Shown one piece after another: positions 1 through 45,326 of a stretch of 45,326 nucleotides of DNA (position 1 is its first letter; each line of letters begins with the position of its first letter). Both the position numbers and the translations under genes were made by a program. Source of the stretch: a phage; the sequence record PX405663.1; one strand, 5' to 3'. Below the pieces are notes generated by a model. The model saw only the letters and a list, made by a program, of their open reading frames with translations. It made no database searches and was not told the DNA's origin.

Positions 1-818
1 TGGCACGCATCAACGCTGGGGCGGAAGTCGGCACGGGTAAGCCCCTTCTTGCCTCGGGAATACGCCTCCAGTGCGGCAATAGCGCGCTTGGATGCAAACT
101 TCGCGAATATCTCCAGCGCTTCTACCGAAATATCCCACTCCGACGCCCCGCCGCAATACGGCTGGAAGATAACCAGTCGCACGGTCGTAATGTCGTACAT
201 AGTTTGCAGCTTGCGCAGCAGGCCGAGCGCGTACAACATAAGCTGTTTGTTCTCTTTCGCCTCGACCTTATGCCGCCCGGTCTTCAGGTCGCCAACAATC
301 AGCATGTACGTCCCATCGGTCTTTTTCATGACCATGACCATATCTGCAGTACCGAACGTTTTAATCCTGTTGCCGTCGATCTCGTAGCCTGAGTGAAGGA
401 CGCGGGTCAGATCGGCGCGCATCTCAAGCTGAACAAACTCCGCCACTTCGATGAGCGGTCGCCAGTGGTCGATGTACGCGTCGCACTGTTTCACCATGTC
501 GTCGTTGACCAGTACGCCGCCTTTCGGTGCTTTCGGGTGTGCCTTTACTGGCCCCTTGCCTTCGTTCTCGACGTAGCACCCTTTATACGTCTTTGCGGTT
601 ATCAGCTTTTCACCGGCGATAATGCGGTTTAGCACCACTTCAGATACGGTGTGCATACTCGTACCGTTAATCGCGGCTTGCCCGGATTCGTTCGGGATAT
701 CTTTTTCTACCACCAGGGCAGCTGGGCAACCCATCCATTTTTTAGCACCGGATGGCCCGAGTAATGAGTGTTCCGTATTGCTACCGGATTGCGTCTTACG
801 TTTTGGTTTAATCGCCAT
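1..818 (-). CDS. Cas4/RecB-family PD-(D/E)xK exonuclease (DUF2800-like), N-terminal part; ORF runs off the window start and continues at 45199..44587 across the circular junction (about 476 aa in total)
   Basis: Codon-by-codon hand translation of the minus strand from ATG at 816..818 (TAATG overlap with upstream stop) is open to position 1: MAIKPKRKTQSG...WMGCPAAL...GTADMVMVMKKTDGTYMLIVGDLKTGRHKVEAKENKQLMLYALGL...RPSVDACQ; N-terminal Cys, D/E-K core with QxxxY, and CQWCRFADQC (C-x2-C-x5-C) spanning the junction are typical of Fe-S Cas4/AddB-type nucleases. Confidence 0.7.
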   Translation of the reverse strand, partial: MAIKPKRKTQSGSNTEHSLLGPSGAKKWMGCPAALVVEKDIPNESGQAAINGTSMHTVSEVVLNRIIAGEKLITAKTYKGCYVENEGKGPVKAHPKAPKGGVLVNDDMVKQCDAYIDHWRPLIEVAEFVQLEMRADLTRVLHSGYEIDGNRIKTFGTADMVMVMKKTDGTYMLIVGDLKTGRHKVEAKENKQLMLYALGLLRKLQTMYDITTVRLVIFQPYCGGASEWDISVEALEIFAKFASKRAIAALEAYSRGKKGLTRADFRPSVDAC

Positions 819-1006
819 TATTCCACCCGTGTAAATTGAGCAATGTAATAATCGTGTTCAACATTGGCCCGCTTCGCGGCTTCGTTCATGGTCGAGGCGA
901 GTTCGCAGGCTTGCGTCCAGCAGCGAATACAGTCCACATTCATAACAATTTCCGGTTGCTCGTCGCCGGTAATACGGCAACGAAATAAAACAAAGAATAT
1001 AGCCAT
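818..1006 (-). CDS. hypothetical protein (62 aa)
   Basis: ORF track; GGGAGA Shine-Dalgarno about 9 nt upstream; stop overlaps exonuclease start. Confidence 0.45.
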   Translation of the reverse strand: MAIFFVLFRCRITGDEQPEIVMNVDCIRCWTQACELASTMNEAAKRANVEHDYYIAQFTRVE

Positions 1007-1258
1007 TTATTTTGTCTCCCAGCGGTCAATTGTTTTTGCTTCGGATGCAACTGCGAAGCGAACATATTCCAGATTGGAATCCGCCCAAATATAAAAGTCG
1101 GGGTTAGTAAAGGTGGTGCGCTTAATTTGCGCGGGGGTGTTACGGCGTTTATCTATTACCGCAACGCGGGATTGAAAGCTGCCGATGCGTTCGAATAGCC
1201 AATAGTACGGGCGCTGGTCGCGGGAATCCACCGCCTCGATTAGCGTGAAGCGTGCCAT
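1007..1258 (-). CDS. hypothetical protein (83 aa)
   Basis: ORF track; GAGGA SD 8 nt upstream of ATG. Confidence 0.5.
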   Translation of the reverse strand: MARFTLIEAVDSRDQRPYYWLFERIGSFQSRVAVIDKRRNTPAQIKRTTFTNPDFYIWADSNLEYVRFAVASEAKTIDRWETK

Positions 1259-1306
1259 TGTCTCGTCCTCTAAAAATAGGCCCGCAGATTAGCGGGCCGG
1301 ATAATA

Positions 1307-1825
1307 TTAGTCTTCCAGTTCGAAATAAGTTTCGACGATTTCTTTAAGATCTTTGTGGAAGTCTTCGACGTCGTCATCTTCCAGCTTGGCGATTGATTTG
1401 ATCTCGAACGATTCCAGCAGGTCGTCGAATTCGTCGTTGGCATCGTCGTCGTCACCACCAGCGATAATAGCGGCATACTGTTTGATCTCGTCGCGCATCT
1501 CTGCCAGCGGATCGGCATCTTTCTTGCCTTTGCCTTTCGCCGGTGCTTTTTTACCCTTCGCCGGTTTTTCGTCTTCGGCTTCTTCATCGTCGTCATCTTC
1601 TACGACTTCTTTTTTGGCCTTACCTTTAGCCGGTGCTTTTTTGGTTTTCGCCGGTTTTTCGTCTTCGGTTTCATCGTCGTCATCTTCTACGACTTCTTTT
1701 TTGGCCTTAGACGGCTTCTTGTCTTCCGGCTTACCAACGGCAGCGCCAACGGTTTCATAATGCTTAGCGATGGTTTCCAGTGCTACTACGCCGCGAGTAA
1801 TCAGGTTTACGATTTGTTCAAACAT
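1307..1825 (-). CDS. highly charged tandem-repeat protein (172 aa), first gene of the minus-strand arm
   Basis: ORF track; GGAGA SD; protein has two copies of an approx 25-aa block KAKKEVVEDDDDE..EDEKPAK.KKAPAKGK and an acidic C-terminal half; underlying approx 75-bp tandem DNA repeat near 1540..1720. Confidence 0.6.
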   Translation of the reverse strand: MFEQIVNLITRGVVALETIAKHYETVGAAVGKPEDKKPSKAKKEVVEDDDDETEDEKPAKTKKAPAKGKAKKEVVEDDDDEEAEDEKPAKGKKAPAKGKGKKDADPLAEMRDEIKQYAAIIAGGDDDDANDEFDDLLESFEIKSIAKLEDDDVEDFHKDLKEIVETYFELED

Positions 1826-1925
1826 GGTATATCTCCGATTGGTTAAGTTTGGCGTCCGGGCGGTATGCCCGGTCGACGAGGGAGATATTAGATTGGTTGC
1901 AGAAGGGAGTCAACAACTAATTTCA

Positions 1926-1962
1926 AAAAAAAAGCGCCGAGGCAAAATGCAACGGCGCTAAC
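1926..1962 (-). terminator. hairpin plus T-run (read on minus strand) in the divergent control region; possible leader attenuator
   Basis: Plus strand shows A9 then AGCGCCG...CGGCGCT inverted repeat; on the minus strand this is a stem-loop followed by T9. Confidence 0.35.
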
Positions 1963-2025
1963 CAATAAGAGACAATGAGACGGGAATTATTATTACACGC
2001 GTGCGCGCCCGTTTCAATATCCAAA

Positions 2026-2058
2026 GGATTTGACACCGTGCAGTTTTGGGTGTAGTTT
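2026..2058 (+). promoter_or_regulatory. sigma70-like promoter for the plus-strand arm
   Basis: TTGACA, 17-nt spacer, TAGTTT about 35 nt upstream of the 2090 start codon. Confidence 0.4.
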
Positions 2059-2089
2059 CGTTGGTCATTAACCAACTGAGGGCAGAGCA

Positions 2090-2419
2090 ATGAATGTAAA
2101 CGACGCAATCGAAATGTTAACGAAGACTGTTAGCAGTGAAACAAGCCGGTCATGGGCTTATACCGATGCCGTTGGGGCGGTGTTGTTTGAAATCGAACGT
2201 CTGCGACTTACCGAAAAAGAATTGCGCGCGAAGCTGGAATTACTCAACGGTACTGCAGCAAGCAAGCTGCAAAAGCACAATGAAGAAATGGAAGAATACA
2301 AAAAACAGGTTATCCGTTTGCGCGCCGAGGGCAAATCCTGGGCAATGATTGCCGAGTTGACTGGGATTAATCAGAGCACAGTGCGCTCCTGGGTACGCAA
2401 TAATAAAACTTCTAAGTAA
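2090..2419 (+). CDS. coiled-coil plus C-terminal helix-turn-helix DNA-binding protein (109 aa)
   Basis: ORF track; GAGGG SD; C-terminal SWAMIAELTGINQSTVRSWV resembles an HTH. Confidence 0.55.
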   Translation: MNVNDAIEMLTKTVSSETSRSWAYTDAVGAVLFEIERLRLTEKELRAKLELLNGTAASKLQKHNEEMEEYKKQVIRLRAEGKSWAMIAELTGINQSTVRSWVRNNKTSK

Positions 2420-2429
2420 GGCCACGGCA

Positions 2430-4694
2430 ATGAGCTTAATTAAATTCGCTGTAACACGACCCGCTAAAAAAGGCGAAAAAGCCAGGGCGGAAAACTTCCA
2501 GATGACCACCGATGAATTTTTCGAATTTATCAAAGATGCGAAAGAAATCTCATCGGTGCATATCAACAAGACGGAAGATAAAGCCGAGTATGCGCGCCGC
2601 AAGCGTAAGGCCGATGGCATCGTAGCATATACCAGTGACGGCCTTCGCCGCAAGACCAGTGCGGTGGACCGCTCGATCCTGTTCTTCGATATCGACCGTA
2701 CCGACACCCGCACCTTACGCCGCTGCCGTAAGGCGTTCATTGACGCGGGTCTGGAACATGTGTTTCACACCACTACCGGCGACCGTCACCCGCTTAAAGG
2801 TGGAACGCGTTGCGCTCGCTTCCTGGTACTCACTGACAAGCCTGTACCGGCTGAAGACCTGGGCCGCGTCCAGTATGCACTATTACACCAACTGGGTCTG
2901 TCAGATGTGGACTTCGACGACTGCACGAAAGACACAAACCGCCTGATGTACCTGCCCCACCAGCAGTCTGTTATTAAGTGCCACTATGGCAAGCGCGCCC
3001 GCGTCCGTCGTCTGCTCCGCCTGGCTGACAAGCTGGGGGTGGAAAAAGAGGAAGTACGCCGCGAGCTTACCCAGGGCGACGACGCAGTGGCAGACGGTAT
3101 TCTGGACTGGTGCTTCCAGGCAGGATTCGAGGAGTTATCTTCCGGGCGGGGCTATGAAGTGCCGTGCCCGAACGAACATCTGCACAGCGGCGAAGGGTCC
3201 ACCGCCATAATGGTCAAGGATGGCGAGATCCGTTTCAAGTGTATGCACACCGGCAACGAGTGTTGCTCGGAACTGAATAGACACCAGCACCTGGCGCTAC
3301 GTCTTATCGGGATCCCGGACCACCTGAACGTCGAGCCACACAATATGTCCCGTAAGCAAATCGCCGCCATCCTTCCGGGGCTGGACGACGAGGAAGTCGA
3401 ATCCTTATATGAACATATTGTTGATGCGGTTGGAGACGGCGAAGAATACGGCGTGTGCACCGATGCGGATCTGGATAACGAGCCGGTTGCGCTGTTCAGT
3501 AAGCACGACCCGATTATCGAGGGGTTGATTAACTTTAAATCGACCTGGTACATGGCGGGTGAGTCGAATATCGGTAAGTCTTTCTATGTGCTGGGCCAGA
3601 TGGGCGCGGTTGCCGCCGGTATTCCGTTTGGTGGCGCGAAGGTCGTCCAGTCTCATTGCTTCTATTTCGACGCGGAAGGTGGCGAAGCCTCTAACCAGCG
3701 TAAAGAAGCATTGCAGATTAAATATGAGCACGACCTGGACAAGCTGCACATTATAGACCTGCAGTCACGCGGCTGGGATATCACCAGCAAATCAGGCTTG
3801 CGCGAAGTTATCAGCTTTATCAACCGCACCGCTAACGGCGAACCGGTTGGCCTGGTGGCGTTCGACTCACTCAACCAGACTGTTGCGTTGCGGTCCGCTG
3901 ATGCTAAACCGTTCGACGAGAACAACGCCAGCGATATGGGTGAAGTGGTCAAAGCGCTGAAGGCCATCGCGGAAAATACAGGTGGCAGTGCGGGCGTCAT
4001 CCACCACCCGGCTAAAGGTGCAAACGGCAGCAGAACGCCACGCGGGTCCGGCGCGCTGCATGGTGCTGTCGATTCTGCGTTCTTCCTGGAACAGCCGGAC
4101 GACAACCAGCCCGGACAATTGAACCTGTATCATGAGAAGTCACGTAACGGCATCAAGCAAGCGCCGCGCGGCTTCGTCCTGCTCAAGTGCAAGGTGAAGG
4201 TGGATCTCCGCAAGTCAGAAGCGTTCGAGGCGCACCAGTCCACCAGCACCGGGCCAGACTTCGGCGACGTGGTTGCCGGATGGGACGTCAAGCCGATTGC
4301 CTCCACGCCACGCGACGAGACTCTCTACCTCGTACCGGTTGCCCTGGCACCTTTCGCTATTGAACAGGCGAAGGCAGCAGGCAAGGCCGCGGTTAAGGAA
4401 GAGAACACCGCCGGACCGCGCAACGAAAAAGAGAAAGTGCTTTATGCGGCACTGGAAAAACTGATGGAAGATAACCCGGACCATACTGGATTCAGTAAAT
4501 CGGCAATTGTCCGCCAGGCGGGACTCGCGAAAGGCGGCACTTCGACGAAGGCAATCGACGATATGGTGGAGCGCGGGGTGATAGGTTTTTACACCGATCC
4601 GCACACCGGGGCCATCTATGGGTCGTCTAATTTGGTCATCAAATCGGATATCCCTATCACGCTTTCCGCGACCGATGACGATTTAAAAGATTAA
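2430..4694 (+). CDS. DNA primase-helicase (primase-polymerase-like N-terminal domain, zinc-binding region, P-loop NTPase/helicase C-terminal half)
   Basis: 754-aa ORF; FFDIDRTD and HVFHTTTGD primase-like motifs; CPNEHLHSG...CMHTGNEC zinc motif; Walker A GESNIGKS. Confidence 0.75.
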   Translation: MSLIKFAVTRPAKKGEKARAENFQMTTDEFFEFIKDAKEISSVHINKTEDKAEYARRKRKADGIVAYTSDGLRRKTSAVDRSILFFDIDRTDTRTLRRCRKAFIDAGLEHVFHTTTGDRHPLKGGTRCARFLVLTDKPVPAEDLGRVQYALLHQLGLSDVDFDDCTKDTNRLMYLPHQQSVIKCHYGKRARVRRLLRLADKLGVEKEEVRRELTQGDDAVADGILDWCFQAGFEELSSGRGYEVPCPNEHLHSGEGSTAIMVKDGEIRFKCMHTGNECCSELNRHQHLALRLIGIPDHLNVEPHNMSRKQIAAILPGLDDEEVESLYEHIVDAVGDGEEYGVCTDADLDNEPVALFSKHDPIIEGLINFKSTWYMAGESNIGKSFYVLGQMGAVAAGIPFGGAKVVQSHCFYFDAEGGEASNQRKEALQIKYEHDLDKLHIIDLQSRGWDITSKSGLREVISFINRTANGEPVGLVAFDSLNQTVALRSADAKPFDENNASDMGEVVKALKAIAENTGGSAGVIHHPAKGANGSRTPRGSGALHGAVDSAFFLEQPDDNQPGQLNLYHEKSRNGIKQAPRGFVLLKCKVKVDLRKSEAFEAHQSTSTGPDFGDVVAGWDVKPIASTPRDETLYLVPVALAPFAIEQAKAAGKAAVKEENTAGPRNEKEKVLYAALEKLMEDNPDHTGFSKSAIVRQAGLAKGGTSTKAIDDMVERGVIGFYTDPHTGAIYGSSNLVIKSDIPITLSATDDDLKD

Positions 4695-4794
4695 ATTTTG
4701 CGCGCATTGGTTGCCATTTTGCGTGCTTTTAGTCGGTCGTATTGGTTGCCGTGTAGTGTAAATATAGTGAATAGTTATGCAATAAAACTGCATA

Positions 4795-4965
4795 AAGTAA
4801 GCGGGACAAAAAGCGGGACAACCAGGGGGCGGGACAAAGCGGGACAGCACCCCTGTCCCGCCCCGGATGACGCGGCCTGGAGAGGAGCGGGACAGCGGGA
4901 CAGCACCCCAGTCTTTCAGACTAGACGGGGGGTCTGGCACCCCCCTCGTCTGAGACTGCATAAAA
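4795..4965. repeat. noncoding array 1: GCGGGACA(A/G) repeats in direct and inverted orientation ending in a conserved 51-bp imperfect hairpin (4908..4958)
   Basis: At least 7 copies of GCGGGACA within about 120 bp including the palindrome GGGACAGCACCCCTGTCCC; near-identical copy of the terminal element at 22101..22150. Confidence 0.8.
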
Positions 4966-5112
4966 TCCAGGATTGCATAATACACGGCAGCGTGATGCGA
5001 ATTGCGGTCGTCGACGAACTAGGCAACCAATACGAGTTGCAGAATGGTGGGTGAAAAATGCAGTTTGCAGTTTCAGCAGATAGCGATCAACTTTTTCATG
5101 CGCGTGATTGAT

Positions 5113-40961: not shown

Positions 40962-43253
40962 TTATTTCCTGTATCTGTACATAATGTCGCCTTCCGCGGC
41001 AAGCGGGAAGCCTTTCGCCCAAACAGGCAGGTCGCACATCAGCGCGCATAGCTCCTCGGTCGTGTAGTCGTCAGTATCCGGAACTTCGGTGATCAATTCA
41101 TCGTGCACTGACAGGACGATCTCATAGCCAGCAGCCTCAACGCCGGGCATGGACCACGCGAGGATATCGCGACACAGCGCCTGTACGATGTTTTCCGTCA
41201 GTTTGCCGCCGTAGGTATACTGGAAGCCCCACTGGCGCGTCGTCTGATTCTCGCCCTGGTATTTGATGCGGGTGCTGGTGCGCTTCTTGCCGGTGTCTTC
41301 GTCGATCTCGGTCGTGACAGACAGCGCGATGCCGGGGTAGCTCATGATGCGCCCTGACGGCAACTCAATTTTCAACCACCACCCCGCGGCGTTCGGGTCG
41401 TCGCGCTCCTCGTCGAAGGTGGGGTCGTGCTTCGCCTTCGTGCGGACTATCTTGAGCGCTTTCTTGCCATCCGGGCGAACGTTCGCGCCAGCCCAGTACG
41501 CTTTGCCCGGATTGCGGATCGCGCAGAGCACCGCGTCTTCCAGTTCAGCCCAAAATTCTACCGTCTTCGGGTGCGACTCGCGCCACATTCGTTTGATCGC
41601 ATCACACGTCAACCATACGTTTTTCGGCAGTATATAAGTTGGGCGCTCGTCCTTCTTGCCAGGCTTCGGCGGGCGCTTCGCTTCGTTGATCCGGGCGTAC
41701 TCATAACCCCGTTTCGCCGCCGCCCAAATGTGATCGGGGAATGTGCCCTTCATCACTTCAGCCATCGCGTAAAGGTCGAGGCCCAGGTTTTTAGCGAACT
41801 GCAAGAACGCCGCCACGCCACCACCATAGCCCAGGCCCAATTCGCACGCCTTACCGATCTGGCGTAAGTCTTTGCGGTTGGCTTTAATGTATTCCGGGTC
41901 GAGGCCAAACATCTTACCGGCAGTTTCACAATAGATATCGCGACCCGCCCTAAACACCATTAGCGCGGTTTTCTCGCCAGCGATCCAGGCGAGGCCACGC
42001 CCTTCTACGTTGGAGAAGTCCGCTACGACAAACTTCTTACCCTTCGCCGGAATAATGCACCCGCGAACAGTAGAGGCCGTTAGCTTCGATATGTCATACG
42101 CCCAGTGTGCGGTCCCGCGTAACAGGGAGTTGATGCCGTTGGTGAGCATGTGCGACCGCACCCAAAACGCGACGTCGCTCTCGCCATCCCGGCGCTTAAT
42201 CTTCCCTTCGTGGTCGTCGCTATACTCGCCACGTGCCAGGTTTTGCGGCTGGAAGCCCTTTCCGGCCCAGCGTAGCGTGCGCTTTGCCCCACCATACTGA
42301 AGACAACCACGGCGGCGTCCATCGGCAGACAGCCCATTTACGAGCGGATTGTACTTAGTCGATGCCGTTGATGACGCGCCGAGGCGCATCTCGATAAGCA
42401 CTTTGCCCTCGTCGGGGAAGTCCGGGTCTTCCAGCAGTTCGTTAAGCGTGGATTTCTGCGCGTTGTGTATTGTGAACGCAGGTGCGAGGTCGCGCAGCGC
42501 TGGCAGGAAGTCATTGCCGGTCAGCTTACCGCCGAAGCGCTCCCATGCTTCTTCCTTCAATTCTTCCTTATGCGCCTGCACCGCTTTGATCGCGGCGTTA
42601 GCCAGGTCAACGTCCACATAGAAGCCGCGGTCGTTAATCATCTGGTCAATAAGCAGGATTTCATCTTCCTTCGGCGTGTTGCCCCAGTCTGGTATGCGCC
42701 AGTAGACTTCACGCATAGCAACAATATCCAGCGCGGCGTAGCGCAGGAATTTAGCCCACTCCTCGGGGTGCGTCTCGCGCGTATAGCGACGGATTTTGTA
42801 GGTCTTAGGGGTTGGCTTACAGAATCGTTTGATTAGCGCCTTGCCAGCCTTATCCTTCGCGTGCTCTGCGTCAACGCCCAACACCTGGCACTGCATATCG
42901 AGGCTACCCGGCAGCGCGTGGCGAAAGGCCATAATCATGGTATCTTCGATCTGGCCTACCGGCAGGTCAATGCCCCACTTCTCGCGAATAACCAGGCGGT
43001 CAAACAGGAGGCCGTTAGCCATCACGATTTTTGCTTTCTTGCGGGATACCCGGCGGAGCGCCTTGCGCAGTTCACGCGGCATTGTGGGGGATTCGGTGCA
43101 ATCCCATGTCTGTACGCGGCCCTCGTCGATGGCGTATGTGCAAATCATAATCTCGGTAGTTGGGTGTTCCGCGTAGGCGTATGCGCCCACTTTCTTCAGG
43201 TCCACCCCGCTAAATGTCTCGGTATCGAGAAAAAGGCGTTCGAAGTCTTTCAT
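40962..43253 (-). CDS. family A DNA polymerase with 3'-5' exonuclease domain
   Basis: 763-aa ORF; N-terminal LFLDTETFSG (Exo I DxE), C-terminal polymerase region; GAGGA SD. Confidence 0.9.
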   Translation of the reverse strand: MKDFERLFLDTETFSGVDLKKVGAYAYAEHPTTEIMICTYAIDEGRVQTWDCTESPTMPRELRKALRRVSRKKAKIVMANGLLFDRLVIREKWGIDLPVGQIEDTMIMAFRHALPGSLDMQCQVLGVDAEHAKDKAGKALIKRFCKPTPKTYKIRRYTRETHPEEWAKFLRYAALDIVAMREVYWRIPDWGNTPKEDEILLIDQMINDRGFYVDVDLANAAIKAVQAHKEELKEEAWERFGGKLTGNDFLPALRDLAPAFTIHNAQKSTLNELLEDPDFPDEGKVLIEMRLGASSTASTKYNPLVNGLSADGRRRGCLQYGGAKRTLRWAGKGFQPQNLARGEYSDDHEGKIKRRDGESDVAFWVRSHMLTNGINSLLRGTAHWAYDISKLTASTVRGCIIPAKGKKFVVADFSNVEGRGLAWIAGEKTALMVFRAGRDIYCETAGKMFGLDPEYIKANRKDLRQIGKACELGLGYGGGVAAFLQFAKNLGLDLYAMAEVMKGTFPDHIWAAAKRGYEYARINEAKRPPKPGKKDERPTYILPKNVWLTCDAIKRMWRESHPKTVEFWAELEDAVLCAIRNPGKAYWAGANVRPDGKKALKIVRTKAKHDPTFDEERDDPNAAGWWLKIELPSGRIMSYPGIALSVTTEIDEDTGKKRTSTRIKYQGENQTTRQWGFQYTYGGKLTENIVQALCRDILAWSMPGVEAAGYEIVLSVHDELITEVPDTDDYTTEELCALMCDLPVWAKGFPLAAEGDIMYRYRK

Positions 43254-43419
43254 TGCTTAATCCTCACTACGGCGTCAGCGCTGCCGATCATGGAGAATAT
43301 ACCGTCGGAAAGGGCTATCTCCTCGCCGTTGTTGCGGATCTCGGCAACTGTGAAATACTCCCCCAGTAGCTTGGACCATACCCGCATTCCGACTTTTACT
43401 TCGCTGGCTTTAATGCGCA
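43252..43419 (-). CDS. small hypothetical protein (about 55 aa), not in ORF track
   Basis: Hand-read ORF MRIKASEVKVGMRVWSKLLGEYF...; stop overlaps polymerase start (ATGA). Confidence 0.3.
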
Positions 43420-43433
43420 TTTTTCATTGTCCT

Positions 43434-43478: not shown

Positions 43479-44261
43479 TTAACGGCGGCGACGTTTGCGT
43501 GGCGCTTCGTCTTCGTCGTCGTCCTCATCTTCGTCATCGCGTGGCTTACGACGTTTGCGAGGTTTTTCATCTTCCTCGTCGTCGTCGTCATCGCGGCGCT
43601 TGGACTTTTTGGACTTGCGCGGCTTGTCATCTTCATCATCGTCATCACGACGTTTTGACTTCTTAGCCTTGCGCGGTGCTTCGTCTTCGTCATCGTTGTC
43701 CAGGTCTTCATCGGAGCAAGAAGAACCACCACCACCGAAGGATTCGCCGTCATCACGGAAGCGCAGACCCAGCAAGCCAGCACCGAGTCCCTTGCCGTTG
43801 GTATTGTTCCACGCCCAGATATCGAGTGACACGTTGCAATAACAACCGGAGTAGATCTCCTGGCCTTCGATCTCGTCGCCGTCGATGGTCAGGCCTTGTT
43901 CCGTCTGCTTCTCGCCGAGTGACGTTTGAATGATCGGCTGTTTGAACGATTTGGCGTTGATGTACAACATGCCTTCGAACTCTTCGGTTACTTCATCGCG
44001 CTCGTCGCCGTCGCGAACTGCGCATTCCTTAGAATCCTGTGCGTAGTGGCGGTCCATCCACTTATCGGCATTCTTCTCGGATTTCAGCTTGTCGGTGAGC
44101 ACTGCGCGCGCTGCCGCTTCCACTTTGTCCACCTGCGGATCTTCTTTATCAAGAAGAATCACGGCGCGGTATGCCGGTTTTTGTCCATCCTGTTTAGGGG
44201 TATCACGTTCCCAAATTTTCAGGAAACATACGCGCACATTTTTCAGGTTGACTTTAGCCAT
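43479..44261 (-). CDS. DUF2815-like putative ssDNA-binding protein with charged repeat C-terminal tail
   Basis: Track ORF 43479..44282 trimmed to MAKVNLKNVRV with GAGGAA SD; C-terminal repeats of DDDDE/KPRKSKKSKRR blocks; sits between exonuclease and polymerase genes. Confidence 0.5.
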   Translation of the reverse strand: MAKVNLKNVRVCFLKIWERDTPKQDGQKPAYRAVILLDKEDPQVDKVEAAARAVLTDKLKSEKNADKWMDRHYAQDSKECAVRDGDERDEVTEEFEGMLYINAKSFKQPIIQTSLGEKQTEQGLTIDGDEIEGQEIYSGCYCNVSLDIWAWNNTNGKGLGAGLLGLRFRDDGESFGGGGSSCSDEDLDNDDEDEAPRKAKKSKRRDDDDEDDKPRKSKKSKRRDDDDDEEDEKPRKRRKPRDDEDEDDDEDEAPRKRRRR

Positions 44262-44351: not shown

Positions 44352-44594
44352 TCAAGCATTTTCATTAAAAAGATTTCGGGTAACGTAGTTGGTGGCGTTC
44401 TCGATCCAGCTTAACGGCGGTCGGTCGATGTTCTTCGCCACCCACCCGACGGCGGCGTCGCTATAGCCGTCGTCAAGCCAGCGGGTTGGATGACGAATCA
44501 TCCAGGCCACCATTAGCACGCCTTGCGCGCAATGCAGGATAAAGCCCAGCGCGCCGAGCAAAAACATCAATAAGATTGCGAATACTTTATTCAT
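44352..44594 (-). CDS. small membrane protein (80 aa)
   Basis: ORF track; GAGGAC SD; two hydrophobic helices. Confidence 0.45.
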   Translation of the reverse strand: MNKVFAILLMFLLGALGFILHCAQGVLMVAWMIRHPTRWLDDGYSDAAVGWVAKNIDRPPLSWIENATNYVTRNLFNENA

Positions 44595-45326
44595 TGCTTA
44601 AGTCCTCATCAGTGGCTTCAGACCATGCAGGGCGCGGGTCGTCGATTGGGGCTAATACCGGTTTAGCCGGTGCGCGTGTGATTTTATCACACAGCTTCGC
44701 CCACACTTTTGGTTTTTCGTCCTTCAATACCTTCTCGGCATCCGTAGGGCTGAGCAATGTTTCTTTGTACATCACATCGCGCTTGATCCGGGCCTTCGTG
44801 AAGATTTCAATCACTTCGCTCTCGTCCGCCCACTTACGGATCCCTTCCTTACCGGCAACCATCTTGAGGCCCAGCGATTCGCCATCGCCCGCCATTACAG
44901 CCTTAAATACCGCGGACTCGATCGCTTTGATGTGCTGGCGCATTGCGTCCAGGCCCTCATAAGCCTTGCGCAGTTCCGCAGCGCTCATAGCTCCGGGGGC
45001 CGCTTCTTTCTTACCACGCTTCGCACGTCGTGCCGCCTTCCGGGCTTCGCGGGCCATATTGCGGTCGTGGTTGGCGCATTCTTCCTCTGTCGCAATACTC
45101 ACGTCGTCGCCCAGGTCTTCGTCGGTTGCCGTTGGCGGTGTCATCGTATCGATTGCGGCCTTAGCGCGGGCACTACACTGATCCGCAAATCGGCACCACT
45201 GGCACGCATCAACGCTGGGGCGGAAGTCGGCACGGGTAAGCCCCTTCTTGCCTCGGGAATACGCCTCCAGTGCGGCAATAGCGCGCTTGGATGCAAACTT
45301 CGCGAATATCTCCAGCGCTTCTACCG
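44587..45326 (-). CDS. C-terminal part of the junction-spanning Cas4/RecB-family exonuclease (unique part 44587..45199; 45200..45326 duplicates 1..127)
   Basis: Track ORF 44587..45144 is the downstream part of a frame that stays open upstream to the window end and is in frame with the minus-strand ORF at 818..1. Confidence 0.7.
   Translation of the reverse strand, partial: VEALEIFAKFASKRAIAALEAYSRGKKGLTRADFRPSVDACQWCRFADQCSARAKAAIDTMTPPTATDEDLGDDVSIATEEECANHDRNMAREARKAARRAKRGKKEAAPGAMSAAELRKAYEGLDAMRQHIKAIESAVFKAVMAGDGESLGLKMVAGKEGIRKWADESEVIEIFTKARIKRDVMYKETLLSPTDAEKVLKDEKPKVWAKLCDKITRAPAKPVLAPIDDPRPAWSEATDEDLSNE
45200..45326. repeat. 127-bp exact duplicate of positions 1..127 (assembly overlap of a circular or terminally redundant genome)
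   Basis: Identical sequence at both window ends; the coding frame is continuous across the join. Confidence 0.85.

What the first reader, a model, noticed from the sequence alone, without database searches (positions are those of the whole stretch)
1307..1825. First gene of the minus-strand arm encodes a tandem-repeat protein of alternating acidic and basic blocks; a similar charged repeat tail is on the SSB-like protein (43479..44261)
Both proteins contain repeated blocks of DDDDE-type acidic runs alternating with KKAPAKGK or KSKKSKRR basic runs, encoded by 60-75-bp tandem DNA repeats (1540..1720 and 43490..43700). Highly acidic first-expressed phage proteins are often DNA mimics or anti-restriction factors; alternating charge repeats also resemble histone-like condensation modules. 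Repeat copy number is a likely source of strain-to-strain length variation.
Basis: partly seen in the sequence, partly recalled or inferred. Interest (0 to 1): 0.5.

Follow-up and report, generated by a model that had tools for sequence, protein, structure and literature searches.

The report
Charged-linker protein partnered with phage SSB
The charged tandem repeats are real, but they form only a floppy, length-variable linker in an uncharacterised phage replication-module protein whose very acidic end domain has changed charge in step with unusual basic blocks in the tail of the phage's single-stranded-DNA-binding protein; an anti-restriction role is not supported.

Summary
The window is a Dhillonvirus (HK578-like coliphage) genome. 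ORF 1307..1825(-) is real, with its own sigma-70 promoter and terminator. It carries a 90-bp x 2.2 tandem repeat. The SSB tail (43482..43694) has four acid/basic blocks.

The repeat encodes only a disordered polyampholyte linker. This lies between a conserved N-terminal helix and a conserved, very acidic three-helix C-terminal domain. Among 96 Dhillonvirus cluster representatives the linker runs from 14 to 78 aa. The flanks stay about 95% identical, so copy-number variation is confirmed.

The family is PHROG 3127, function unknown. It always heads the arm holding the DUF2800 nuclease, the gp2.5/Enc34-type SSB and PolA, in Dhillonvirus and Guernseyvirinae (about 640 genomes). Weak, non-acidic relatives occupy the same slot in other phages.

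K/R blocks in the SSB tail and the acidic C-domain co-occur perfectly, though as a single clade. Their charges co-vary (Spearman -0.83, 58 loci, not corrected for phylogeny).

Best reading: a flexible adaptor of the replication/recombination module, probably contacting the SSB tail. No Ocr, ArdA or Gam membership was found, and published data report Dhillonviruses as restriction-sensitive. Function remains untested.

The parts
1307..1825 (-). Gene for the 172-aa protein (PHROG 3127; equivalent to SO-1 gp46 and jat_19)
   Evidence: ORF. phrog_3127 match E=1.8e-53 over the full length. 155 phage records hold it.
1733..1825 (-). Residues 1-31: conserved N-terminal amphipathic helix (MFEQIVNLITRGVVALETIAKHYE...)
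   Evidence: AF2 helix 2-28, pLDDT about 76-83 with the diverse alignment. 96% mean pairwise identity among 97 Dhillonvirus representatives. L8, R11, V13, A15, E17 and A20 are kept across the whole family.
1520..1732 (-). Residues 32-102: disordered polyampholyte linker made of the acid/basic tandem repeats
   Evidence: pLDDT below 50-55. 23 D/E against 22 K/R, 63% charged residues. Length 14-78 aa in relatives, with 96 distinct linkers in 97 representatives.
1518..1709 (.). Tandem DNA repeat, period 90 bp, 2.2 copies
   Evidence: TRF score 287, 87% matches. Unit alignment.
1310..1519 (-). Residues 103-172: conserved acidic three-helix C-terminal domain (net charge -21, pI 4.05)
   Evidence: AF2 helices 106-123, 127-139 and 150-168, pLDDT 90-97. 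Charge. A profile search of 1.84 billion representatives finds only 40 proteins; in all those inspected the domain lies at the C-terminus.
1885..1913 (-). Sigma-70-type promoter TTGACT-17-TAATAT of the gene
   Evidence: Conserved in jat, SO-1 and phiEco273.
1270..1298 (-). Intrinsic terminator (7 G-C pairs plus T run) directly after the stop codon
   Evidence: The same motif is present in 10 of 10 Dhillonvirus loci that cover the site.
43479..44261 (-). gp2.5/Enc34-type SSB (ssDNA-binding and annealing protein)
   Evidence: Pfam Enc34_ssDNA-bd, 108 bits against a cut-off of 26. phrog_112 E=7e-57.
43482..43694 (-). SSB C-terminal tail: four acid-run / K,R-run blocks, ending in APRKRRRR
   Evidence: 32 D/E and 28 K/R in 71 aa. 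TRF 43571..43696, period 54. Tails of complete genes in Dhillonvirus relatives run 48-85 aa.

Best explanation
The 172-aa protein belongs to an uncharacterised phage family (PHROG 3127). The family heads the replication/recombination operon: this gene, 0-2 small genes, a DUF2800 PD-(D/E)XK exonuclease, a small gene, a gp2.5/Enc34-type SSB, a small gene, then PolA.

The protein is built as a two-ended flexible tether. It has a conserved N-terminal amphipathic helix, a disordered linker and a conserved three-helix C-terminal domain.

The tandem repeats make up only the linker. This is a blocky polyampholyte that expands and contracts in frame, presumably by slippage or unequal recombination of the 90-bp unit. 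The exact length seems to matter little. At least one basic K/G/P block next to the C-domain is always kept.

In the clade of Dhillonvirus plus Guernseyvirinae, the C-domain has become strongly acidic. In the same clade the normally purely acidic SSB tail has acquired K/R blocks.

I infer that the acidic C-domain, and perhaps the acid blocks of the linker, bind the basic blocks of the SSB tail electrostatically. The N-helix would hold a second partner: itself, the nuclease or the helicase-primase. The protein would then recruit or organise SSB-coated ssDNA at the phage replication/recombination machinery.

Shown: architecture, disorder, conservation pattern, synteny, repeat variability, co-occurrence and charge co-variation. 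Inferred: the physical partner and the role.
For: - Architecture: AF2 gives H2-28, a disordered 29-105 and a three-helix bundle 106-168 at pLDDT 90-97.
- Conservation: N31 is 96% and C70 is 95% identical among 97 representatives, while 96 of 97 linkers differ and linker length spans 14-78 aa.
- Synteny is conserved down to about 25-40% identity: L004, L005, Shemara, the Jerseyvirus EnJE6, L090 and L091.
- Abundance: 155 Dhillonvirus records and 485 records of Jerseyvirus, Kagunavirus and related phages hold it.
- Link to the SSB: of 33 loci with K/R blocks in the SSB tail, 31 have the acidic C-domain ORF upstream; the other two lack upstream DNA. None of about 50 loci with canonical acidic tails has it.
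- Charge co-variation: C-terminal 65-aa net charge against SSB-tail K/R count gives Spearman -0.83 over 58 loci, -0.86 over 42 groups, and -0.64 within the derived clade.
- The slot protein in canonical loci shares the N-helix / linker / C-domain plan but is near neutral, mean -2.5 against -13.3. PHROG cross-hits link 3127 with 18562, 408, 5053 and others.
- Established knowledge: the gp2.5-type acidic tail is the docking site for replisome partners (as reviewed in PMC5686142 and PMC13402713).
Against: - No experiment and no complex prediction were possible, so the partner is pure inference.
- The K/R-tail SSBs and the acidic C-domain proteins form one monophyletic clade on the SSB tree. Co-occurrence therefore reflects a single origin.
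- The correlations are not corrected for phylogeny; roughly 8-10 independent lineages underlie them.
- Homology to the neutral slot proteins rests on weak E-values (1e-4 to about 1) plus position. hhalign against one Vibrio example was negative.
- Both regions could simply share a mutational tendency to grow charged low-complexity sequence.
- A three-helix bundle gives no functional clue.
Confidence: 0.4

Rival explanations
1. DNA-binding, H1-like or AT-hook-like organiser. The K/A/P basic blocks of the linker bind the DNA minor groove. The acidic blocks and the acidic C-domain modulate this, as an autoinhibitor or chaperone in the manner of the HMGB1 acidic tail. The protein would coat or bridge phage or host DNA early in infection.
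For: - Basic blocks such as KKAPAKGKAKK resemble H1 and AlgP-type tails (own knowledge).
- Relatives carry canonical AT-hook cores: PAKRGRPAKPK in P0106-P0108, KPKRGRKPATKK in P0149, and many TRGK / TRTRK motifs.
- Every natural deletion variant keeps at least one basic block next to the C-domain; the shortest linker is PKANGTAKNGKGKK.
- Short K/P/G blocks also occur in the neutral slot proteins.
Against: - The window protein has no RGR core.
- The linker is net -1 and the protein net -23, pI 4.5.
- Four Dhillonvirus representatives lack acid runs and others vary widely, so there is no fixed stoichiometry.
- No Pfam DNA-binding family matches.
Confidence: 0.2
2. Host-nuclease (RecBCD) inhibitor of the recombination module, analogous to lambda Gam or T7 gp5.9. 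The acidic three-helix domain would mimic DNA and protect linear phage DNA ends while the phage exonuclease and SSB/annealing protein act.
For: - The gene lies next to an exonuclease and an annealing-type SSB, as gam lies next to exo and bet in lambda (own knowledge).
- The domain is extremely acidic (net -21 in 70 aa).
- P2 OLD, which is triggered by RecBCD inhibitors, defends against Dhillonviruses (bioRxiv 10.64898/2026.07.10.737580).
Against: - No similarity to Gam, gp5.9 or Abc2 was found.
- Probable remote homologues in the same slot are not acidic, so DNA mimicry cannot be the ancestral function.
- The OLD paper also names replication-origin hairpins as triggers.
- A long linker with basic blocks and a conserved N-helix are not explained.
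Confidence: 0.12
3. Ocr/ArdA-like anti-restriction or other anti-defence protein expressed first after infection.
For: - It is an acidic protein with its own strong promoter, and the first gene of an early arm.
- Some first-expressed phage proteins, such as T7 Ocr, are DNA mimics (own knowledge).
Against: - No family or fold match was found.
- The position inside the replication module is fixed across two phage groups.
- The BASEL study reports Dhillonviruses as restriction-sensitive; TheodorHerzl carries the gene (PMC8594841; PMC11990801).
- The published Dhillonvirus anti-defence gene, anti-Tmn, is a different ORF with a beta-sheet domain (PMC11846954).
Confidence: 0.08
4. The repeats are functionless expansions or assembly artefacts in a dispensable ORF.
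For: - Linker length and sequence are almost unconstrained.
- Low-complexity GAN/AAR-rich DNA is prone to slippage (own knowledge).
Against: - All 96 variants analysed stay in frame; three other representatives (P0097, P0103, P0104) are frameshifted or truncated.
- The flanks are under strong constraint.
- Polyampholyte character is retained in lineages with unrelated linker sequence.
- The gene has been retained in about 640 genomes.
- Independent assemblies agree.
Confidence: 0.05

Closest known systems
T7 gp2.5 / Enterobacter phage Enc34 ORF6 single-stranded-DNA-binding proteins
   Same: The window SSB has the same OB-fold family (Pfam Enc34_ssDNA-bd) and a disordered C-terminal tail that begins with acidic residues. 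It sits in the same module, alongside DUF2800 and PolA.
   Different: Canonical tails are purely acidic. In Enc34, 16 of the last 29 residues are D/E (PMC5686142). In about 50 other loci the tail reads ..DDFDDL.. with 0-1 K/R. Here the tail is a 71-aa polyampholyte with four K/R blocks and ends in RKRRRR.
SSB-tail-binding mediators and loaders (T4 gp59, lambda Orf/NinB, RecO, the chi subunit)
   Same: The proposed role is similar: a small helical protein encoded with the replication/recombination genes that docks on the SSB tail and links it to another factor (own knowledge).
T7 Ocr / ArdA DNA-mimic anti-restriction proteins
   Same: Very acidic, helical, and expressed from an early promoter.
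   Different: There is no homology or fold match. Only a 65-aa bundle is folded. The gene is embedded in the replication module. The BASEL study reports Dhillonviruses as restriction-sensitive, and at least TheodorHerzl carries the gene (PMC8594841).
Alternating acidic/basic disordered regions of eukaryotic nucleolar and chromatin proteins (Nopp140, nucleolin, HMGB1 tail), and the TonB EP/KP spacer
   Same: Blocks of D/E alternate with K/A/P-rich blocks. In relatives there are EPEPEP and KPKPK runs. Only weak compositional hits were seen: BUD22 at E=0.02 and TonB at E=0.016.
   Different: These are resemblances of composition only, far below family cut-offs. There is no homology and no evidence of the same function.

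Membership tests
PHROG 3127 (phage protein family of unknown function) | Full-length match to the family profile | tested here: met
   E=1.8e-53, residues 1-172 against profile positions 1-178 of 178. All 36 diverse relatives also match.
PHROG 3127 (phage protein family of unknown function) | Position at the head of the arm holding the DUF2800 nuclease, Enc34-type SSB and PolA, divergent from the HTH regulator and AAA_25 helicase-primase | tested here: met
   Seen in the window, jat, SO-1 and phiEco273, L004 and L005, Shemara and EnJE6, and L090 and L091.
Ocr / ArdA DNA-mimic anti-restriction proteins | Sequence membership (Pfam Ocr or ArdA models) or a solved-structure relative | tested here: not met
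   No such hit at E<=0.1-1 in Pfam or NCBIfam. The PDB profile search found nothing relevant.
Ocr / ArdA DNA-mimic anti-restriction proteins | Elongated folded body displaying a DNA-like array of carboxylates | tested here: not met
Ocr / ArdA DNA-mimic anti-restriction proteins | Protects phage from type I restriction | not testable with these tools
   Literature only. The BASEL study reports Dhillonviruses as sensitive to type I and II restriction relative to Queuovirinae (PMC8594841). At least TheodorHerzl carries the gene.
Histone H1-like / AT-hook DNA-binding proteins | AT-hook core R-G-R-P flanked by basic residues | tested here: not met
   Absent from the window protein. Present in relatives P0106-P0108 (PAKRGRPAK) and P0149.
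Histone H1-like / AT-hook DNA-binding proteins | Net strongly basic K/A/P-rich region | tested here: not met
   K/A/P blocks exist, but the linker is net -1 and the protein net -23.
Histone H1-like / AT-hook DNA-binding proteins | Binds DNA | not testable with these tools
   Needs EMSA or in vivo localisation.
gp2.5 / Enc34-type SSB (second protein of the finding) | OB-fold of the Enc34_ssDNA-bd family | tested here: met
   108.3 bits against a cut-off of 26. phrog_112 E=7e-57.
gp2.5 / Enc34-type SSB (second protein of the finding) | Purely acidic C-terminal tail | tested here: not met
   The tail has 28 K/R among 71 residues and ends in APRKRRRR. Canonical relatives have 0-1 K/R.
RecBCD inhibitors (lambda Gam, T7 gp5.9, P22 Abc2) | Sequence or fold relationship | tested here: not met
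RecBCD inhibitors (lambda Gam, T7 gp5.9, P22 Abc2) | Inhibits RecBCD | not testable with these tools
   There is only an indirect hint: P2 OLD restricts Dhillonviruses.

The most novel reading that the evidence does not exclude
The acidic C-domain protein and the K/R-block SSB tail are a co-evolved, charge-reversed version of the classical contact between an acidic SSB tail and its partner. Because both carry multivalent acid/basic block repeats, they may form an electrostatic network, possibly a condensate, that organises the phage replication/recombination compartment. Repeat number would then tune valency.
Probability: 0.2. Interest if true: 0.7.

Novelty: new variant of a known kind. Interest (0 to 1): 0.45.

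Why it matters
Acidic C-terminal tails are treated as a universal feature of bacterial and phage SSBs, and as the hub for replisome partners. This large group of coliphages and Salmonella phages includes BASEL and SECphi model phages and therapy candidates. Here the tail has become a polyampholyte, together with a very acidic small protein encoded at the head of the same operon.

If the two proteins interact, this would be a natural charge-swap experiment on how SSB tails recruit partners. It would also give a function to a widespread 'dark' family, PHROG 3127 and its probable relatives, in a common phage replication module.

This SSB is also the trigger of retron Eco8 and is implicated in Hachiman and ShosTA escape, so its partners matter for phage-defence work.

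Tried and rejected
- Pfam, NCBIfam and PHROGs scans gave only phrog_3127 plus compositional noise such as BUD22, TonB and DUF6669.
- A profile search of PDB sequences found nothing.
- An exhaustive HMM search of 1.84 billion representatives with the C-domain profile found 40 proteins. None of those inspected carries an informative fused domain.
- hhalign of the family against the Vibrio phage slot protein was negative. That homology claim therefore rests on PHROG cross-hits and position only.
- Literature search: the Dhillonvirus anti-Tmn gene is a different ORF. RAZR, retron Eco8, Borvo and Hachiman triggers in SECphi4/18 are the portal protein, the SSB or the polymerase, not this gene. One search was uninformative.
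- A DNA comparison of the two repeat regions showed no homology beyond codon-level runs, so gene conversion is rejected.
- A first correlation attempt using HMM envelope boundaries was unreliable. It was replaced by a fixed last-65-aa definition.
- Linker length does not correlate with SSB-tail length.

Full report
**What the window is.**
A megablast search of bases 1-5000 finds 162 phage records. Nearly all are Escherichia phages of the genus Dhillonvirus (HK578-like small siphoviruses); the best is phiEco273 at 96.6% identity. The first and last 127 bases of the window are identical. It is therefore a circular assembly opened inside the DUF2800 PD-(D/E)XK nuclease gene.

Annotated relatives (jat, SO-1, phiEco273) give the gene order on the minus strand:
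- a divergent intergenic region
- the 172-aa gene (SO-1 gp46)
- an 83-aa gene
- a 62-aa gene
- the nuclease
- an 80-aa gene
- the gp2.5/Enc34-type SSB
- a 56-aa gene
- PolA

On the other strand an HTH protein and an AAA_25 helicase-primase diverge from the same intergenic region.

ORF 1307..1825(-) encodes the quoted 172-aa protein. TRF finds a 90-bp unit in 2.2 copies at 1518..1709, and a 54-bp unit in 2.3 copies at 43571..43696.

The protein has two 30/31-aa units, each an acid run followed by a K/A/P basic run. The SSB tail has four acid/K,R blocks and ends in APRKRRRR. The two regions share a motif (acid run, then [EK/DA]P[AR]K, then basic run). They share no DNA homology beyond codon-level runs.

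The gene has a TTGACT-17-TAATAT promoter, a GGAG ribosome-binding site and a strong terminator immediately after the stop codon. The promoter is conserved in three relatives. The terminator is present in all ten Dhillonvirus loci that cover the site.

**Anatomy of the protein.**
AlphaFold2 was run with two different alignments, and both give the same picture:
- a helix at residues 2-28
- a disordered stretch from about 29 to 105 (pLDDT about 35-55)
- a three-helix bundle at 106-168 (pLDDT 90-97)

The repeats lie entirely within the disordered part. The charge pattern follows the same division:

| Region | Residues | D/E | K/R | Net charge |
|---|---|---|---|---|
| Linker | 32-102 | 23 | 22 | -1 |
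| C-domain | 103-172 | 27 | 6 | -21 (pI 4.05) |
| Whole protein | 1-172 | 53 | 30 | -23 |

**Variation among relatives.**
A search of 5.8 billion proteins returned 166 homologues. In 96 Dhillonvirus-type cluster representatives the linker runs from 14 to 78 aa. Lengths cluster near 41 aa (one unit) and 66 aa (two units). Four representatives have no acidic run at all. The shortest linker still keeps one basic block, PKANGTAKNGKGKK.

The first 31 residues are 96% identical on average and the last 70 residues 95%. Yet 96 of 97 linkers are distinct. The predicted strain-to-strain length variation is therefore real. All 96 variants analysed are in frame and come from independent assemblies, so an assembly error is excluded; three other representatives (P0097, P0103, P0104) are frameshifted or truncated. 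SSB tails also vary, from 48 to 85 aa in complete Dhillonvirus genes.

**Family and context.**
The protein is a full-length member of PHROG 3127, a family of unknown function. Members at 25-45% identity occur in Guernseyvirinae, for example Jerseyvirus EnJE6 gp11 and Cornellvirus Shemara gp52. tblastn with the EnJE6 protein finds 485 records, mainly Salmonella and Escherichia phages including named Kagunavirus records. Members also occur on metagenomic contigs.

In every case the gene sits at or near the head of the same arm. It is divergent from an HTH/XRE regulator and the helicase-primase, and it lies directly or nearly directly upstream of the DUF2800 nuclease.

An exhaustive profile search with the C-domain against 1.84 billion representatives found only 40 proteins. 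The 33 whose sequences were inspected are 115-212 aa long and carry the domain at the C-terminus; in three it is duplicated.

All members keep the same plan: an N-helix (consensus ML[DE]KFLxLLERFVVAHELIAANS), a charged low-complexity linker and an acidic bundle. The linker sequences are unrelated between lineages but remain polyampholytic. They include EP/KP runs and canonical AT-hooks such as PAKRGRPAK.

No Pfam, NCBIfam or PDB-sequence relative exists. Fold searches return only generic or designed three-helix bundles and uncharacterised phage proteins.

**Link to the SSB.**
I fetched 80 viral loci around Enc34-type SSBs. For each I extracted the SSB tail and searched the flanks with the C-domain profile.

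- Every SSB tail with K/R blocks (6-29 K/R) has the acidic C-domain ORF upstream: 31 of 33 loci. The two exceptions lack upstream DNA.
- None of about 50 loci with canonical tails (..DDFDDL.., 0-1 K/R) has it.

The Enc34 paper describes the acidic tail as characteristic of all prokaryotic and phage SSBs. It also shows that the tail enforces ssDNA specificity (PMC5686142). The tail in this window is therefore atypical.

On a neighbour-joining tree of SSB cores, the K/R-tail tips form one clade. The co-occurrence thus reflects a single origin that has been retained without exception across deep divergence.

**Probable remote relatives.**
With a more diverse profile, the weak hits in canonical loci (E from 1e-4 to about 1) fall mostly (about 30 of 41) on one ORF. 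It lies on the same strand and ends 1.1-1.6 kb upstream of the SSB, just before the nuclease.

These 137-175-aa proteins (some about 300 aa) share the overall plan: a short N-helix, an A/P/T-rich linker and a helical C-domain of about 60 aa. Their C-domains are near neutral.

PHROG cross-hits connect 3127 with 18562, 408, 5053, 7721, 32389 and others, all of unknown function. One direct hhalign test was negative. I therefore treat this homology as probable, not proven.

**Charge co-variation.**
I compared the net charge of the last 65 residues of the slot protein with the K/R count of the SSB tail.

| Comparison | n | Spearman rho |
|---|---|---|
| All loci | 58 | -0.83 |
| Loci grouped by close SSB lineage | 42 groups | -0.86 |
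| Within the derived clade | 30 | -0.64 |

The mean C-terminal charge is -2.5 in canonical loci and -13.3 in derived loci. These statistics are not corrected for phylogeny, and perhaps 8-10 independent lineages underlie them. Linker length does not track tail length.

**Interpretation.**
The repeats are an evolutionarily labile, disordered polyampholyte spacer between two constrained binding modules. This is the architecture of a flexible adaptor.

Three observations point to a role within the replication/recombination module, most economically through an electrostatic contact with the SSB tail:
- the fixed place at the head of the replication/recombination operon
- retention in about 640 genomes
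- the charge relationship with the SSB tail

The partner of the N-helix is unknown. It could be the protein itself, the nuclease or the helicase-primase. All of this is inference; nothing here tests binding.

Anti-restriction or DNA mimicry is not supported:
- There is no family or fold relationship to known DNA mimics.
- The probable relatives are not acidic.
- The gene is a fixed module component.
- The BASEL studies describe Dhillonviruses as restriction-sensitive; TheodorHerzl (Bas14) carries the gene (PMC8594841; PMC11990801).
- The one published Dhillonvirus anti-defence gene, anti-Tmn, is a different ORF (PMC11846954).

A Gam-like RecBCD inhibitor remains a minority possibility. The gene neighbours an exonuclease and an annealing protein, and P2 OLD restricts Dhillonviruses.

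DNA binding by the basic blocks is plausible, given the AT-hooks in relatives and the retained basic block. It is untested, and it may be part of the adaptor function.

**Novelty.**
The gene family is already catalogued, but without a function, and I found no paper that addresses it. The polyampholyte SSB tail, and its co-variation with an acidic partner-like protein, appear not to have been described in the literature I could search. I rate this a new variant of a known kind (SSB-tail-centred replisome organisation), of moderate interest.

Noticed in passing
window 1-127 and 45200-45326: The first and last 127 bases are identical, which is a circular-assembly overlap typical of k=127 assemblers. 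The true genome is 45,199 bp, and the DUF2800 nuclease gene is split across the window ends (its C-terminal part is at 44587..45144).
   Followed up: yes
window 1925-2017 (- strand): A promoter-like site (TTGAAA-17-AATAAT with TG, 10 of 12 matches) is followed about 30 nt later by a strong hairpin (GCGCCG..CGGCGC) and a U9 run. This could give a small RNA of about 55-65 nt just upstream of the gene's own promoter. The region is nearly invariant in jat, SO-1 and phiEco273. There is no Rfam match. The fold z-score is -2.98.
   Followed up: partly
window 1826-1884; L001:3378-3560, L003:3325-3500: Many Dhillonviruses carry an extra leader of about 140-170 nt between the promoter and the MFEQ start codon; this window lacks it. 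The leader is in frame, so some records annotate a 59-aa N-terminal extension (MQDANWRGAT...; P0005, P0054, P0068, P0070, P0074; SO-1 gp46 at 202 aa). Guernseyvirinae homologues and this window argue for the MFEQ start.
   Followed up: partly
window 4799-4904: Short direct repeats (AAGCGGGACAAA x1.9 and AGCGGGAC x2.4) lie just downstream of the helicase-primase gene. The site corresponds to SO-1 'region B', annotated as direct, inverted and palindromic repeats and a possible origin.
   Followed up: no
window 2090-2419 (+): Different records annotate this 109-aa protein as transposase, resolvase or 'DNA recombination nuclease inhibitor gamma'. Pfam supports only a C-terminal HTH (HTH_23, HTH_28, Sigma70_r4_2). 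The Gam label looks unfounded.
   Followed up: partly
window 43250-43420 (-): A 56-aa ORF lies between the SSB and PolA (phrog_10102, unknown function). It appears to correspond to the 'SECphi4 56aa protein of unknown function' that was cloned in the Stokar-Avihail escape-mutant study. Which defence system it relates to was not established here.
   Followed up: no
P0122, P0123, P0130 (metagenomic relatives): Three family members of 208-212 aa carry two tandem copies of the C-terminal three-helix domain.
   Followed up: no
L017:8001-8660 (IMGVR_UViG_3300045988_003101, contig end): The SSB tail of this public contig ends in ...AVSYTHLRAHET at the contig end. This is the translation of the Nextera transposase adaptor (CTGTCTCTTATACACATCTCCGAGCCCACGAGAC), so the contig carries adaptor contamination.
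   Followed up: partly
phage records H140, H143, H144, H156, H165: Several Guernseyvirinae records label the homologue '13.88 kDa late protein' or 'late protein'. No evidence was found to support this annotation.
   Followed up: no
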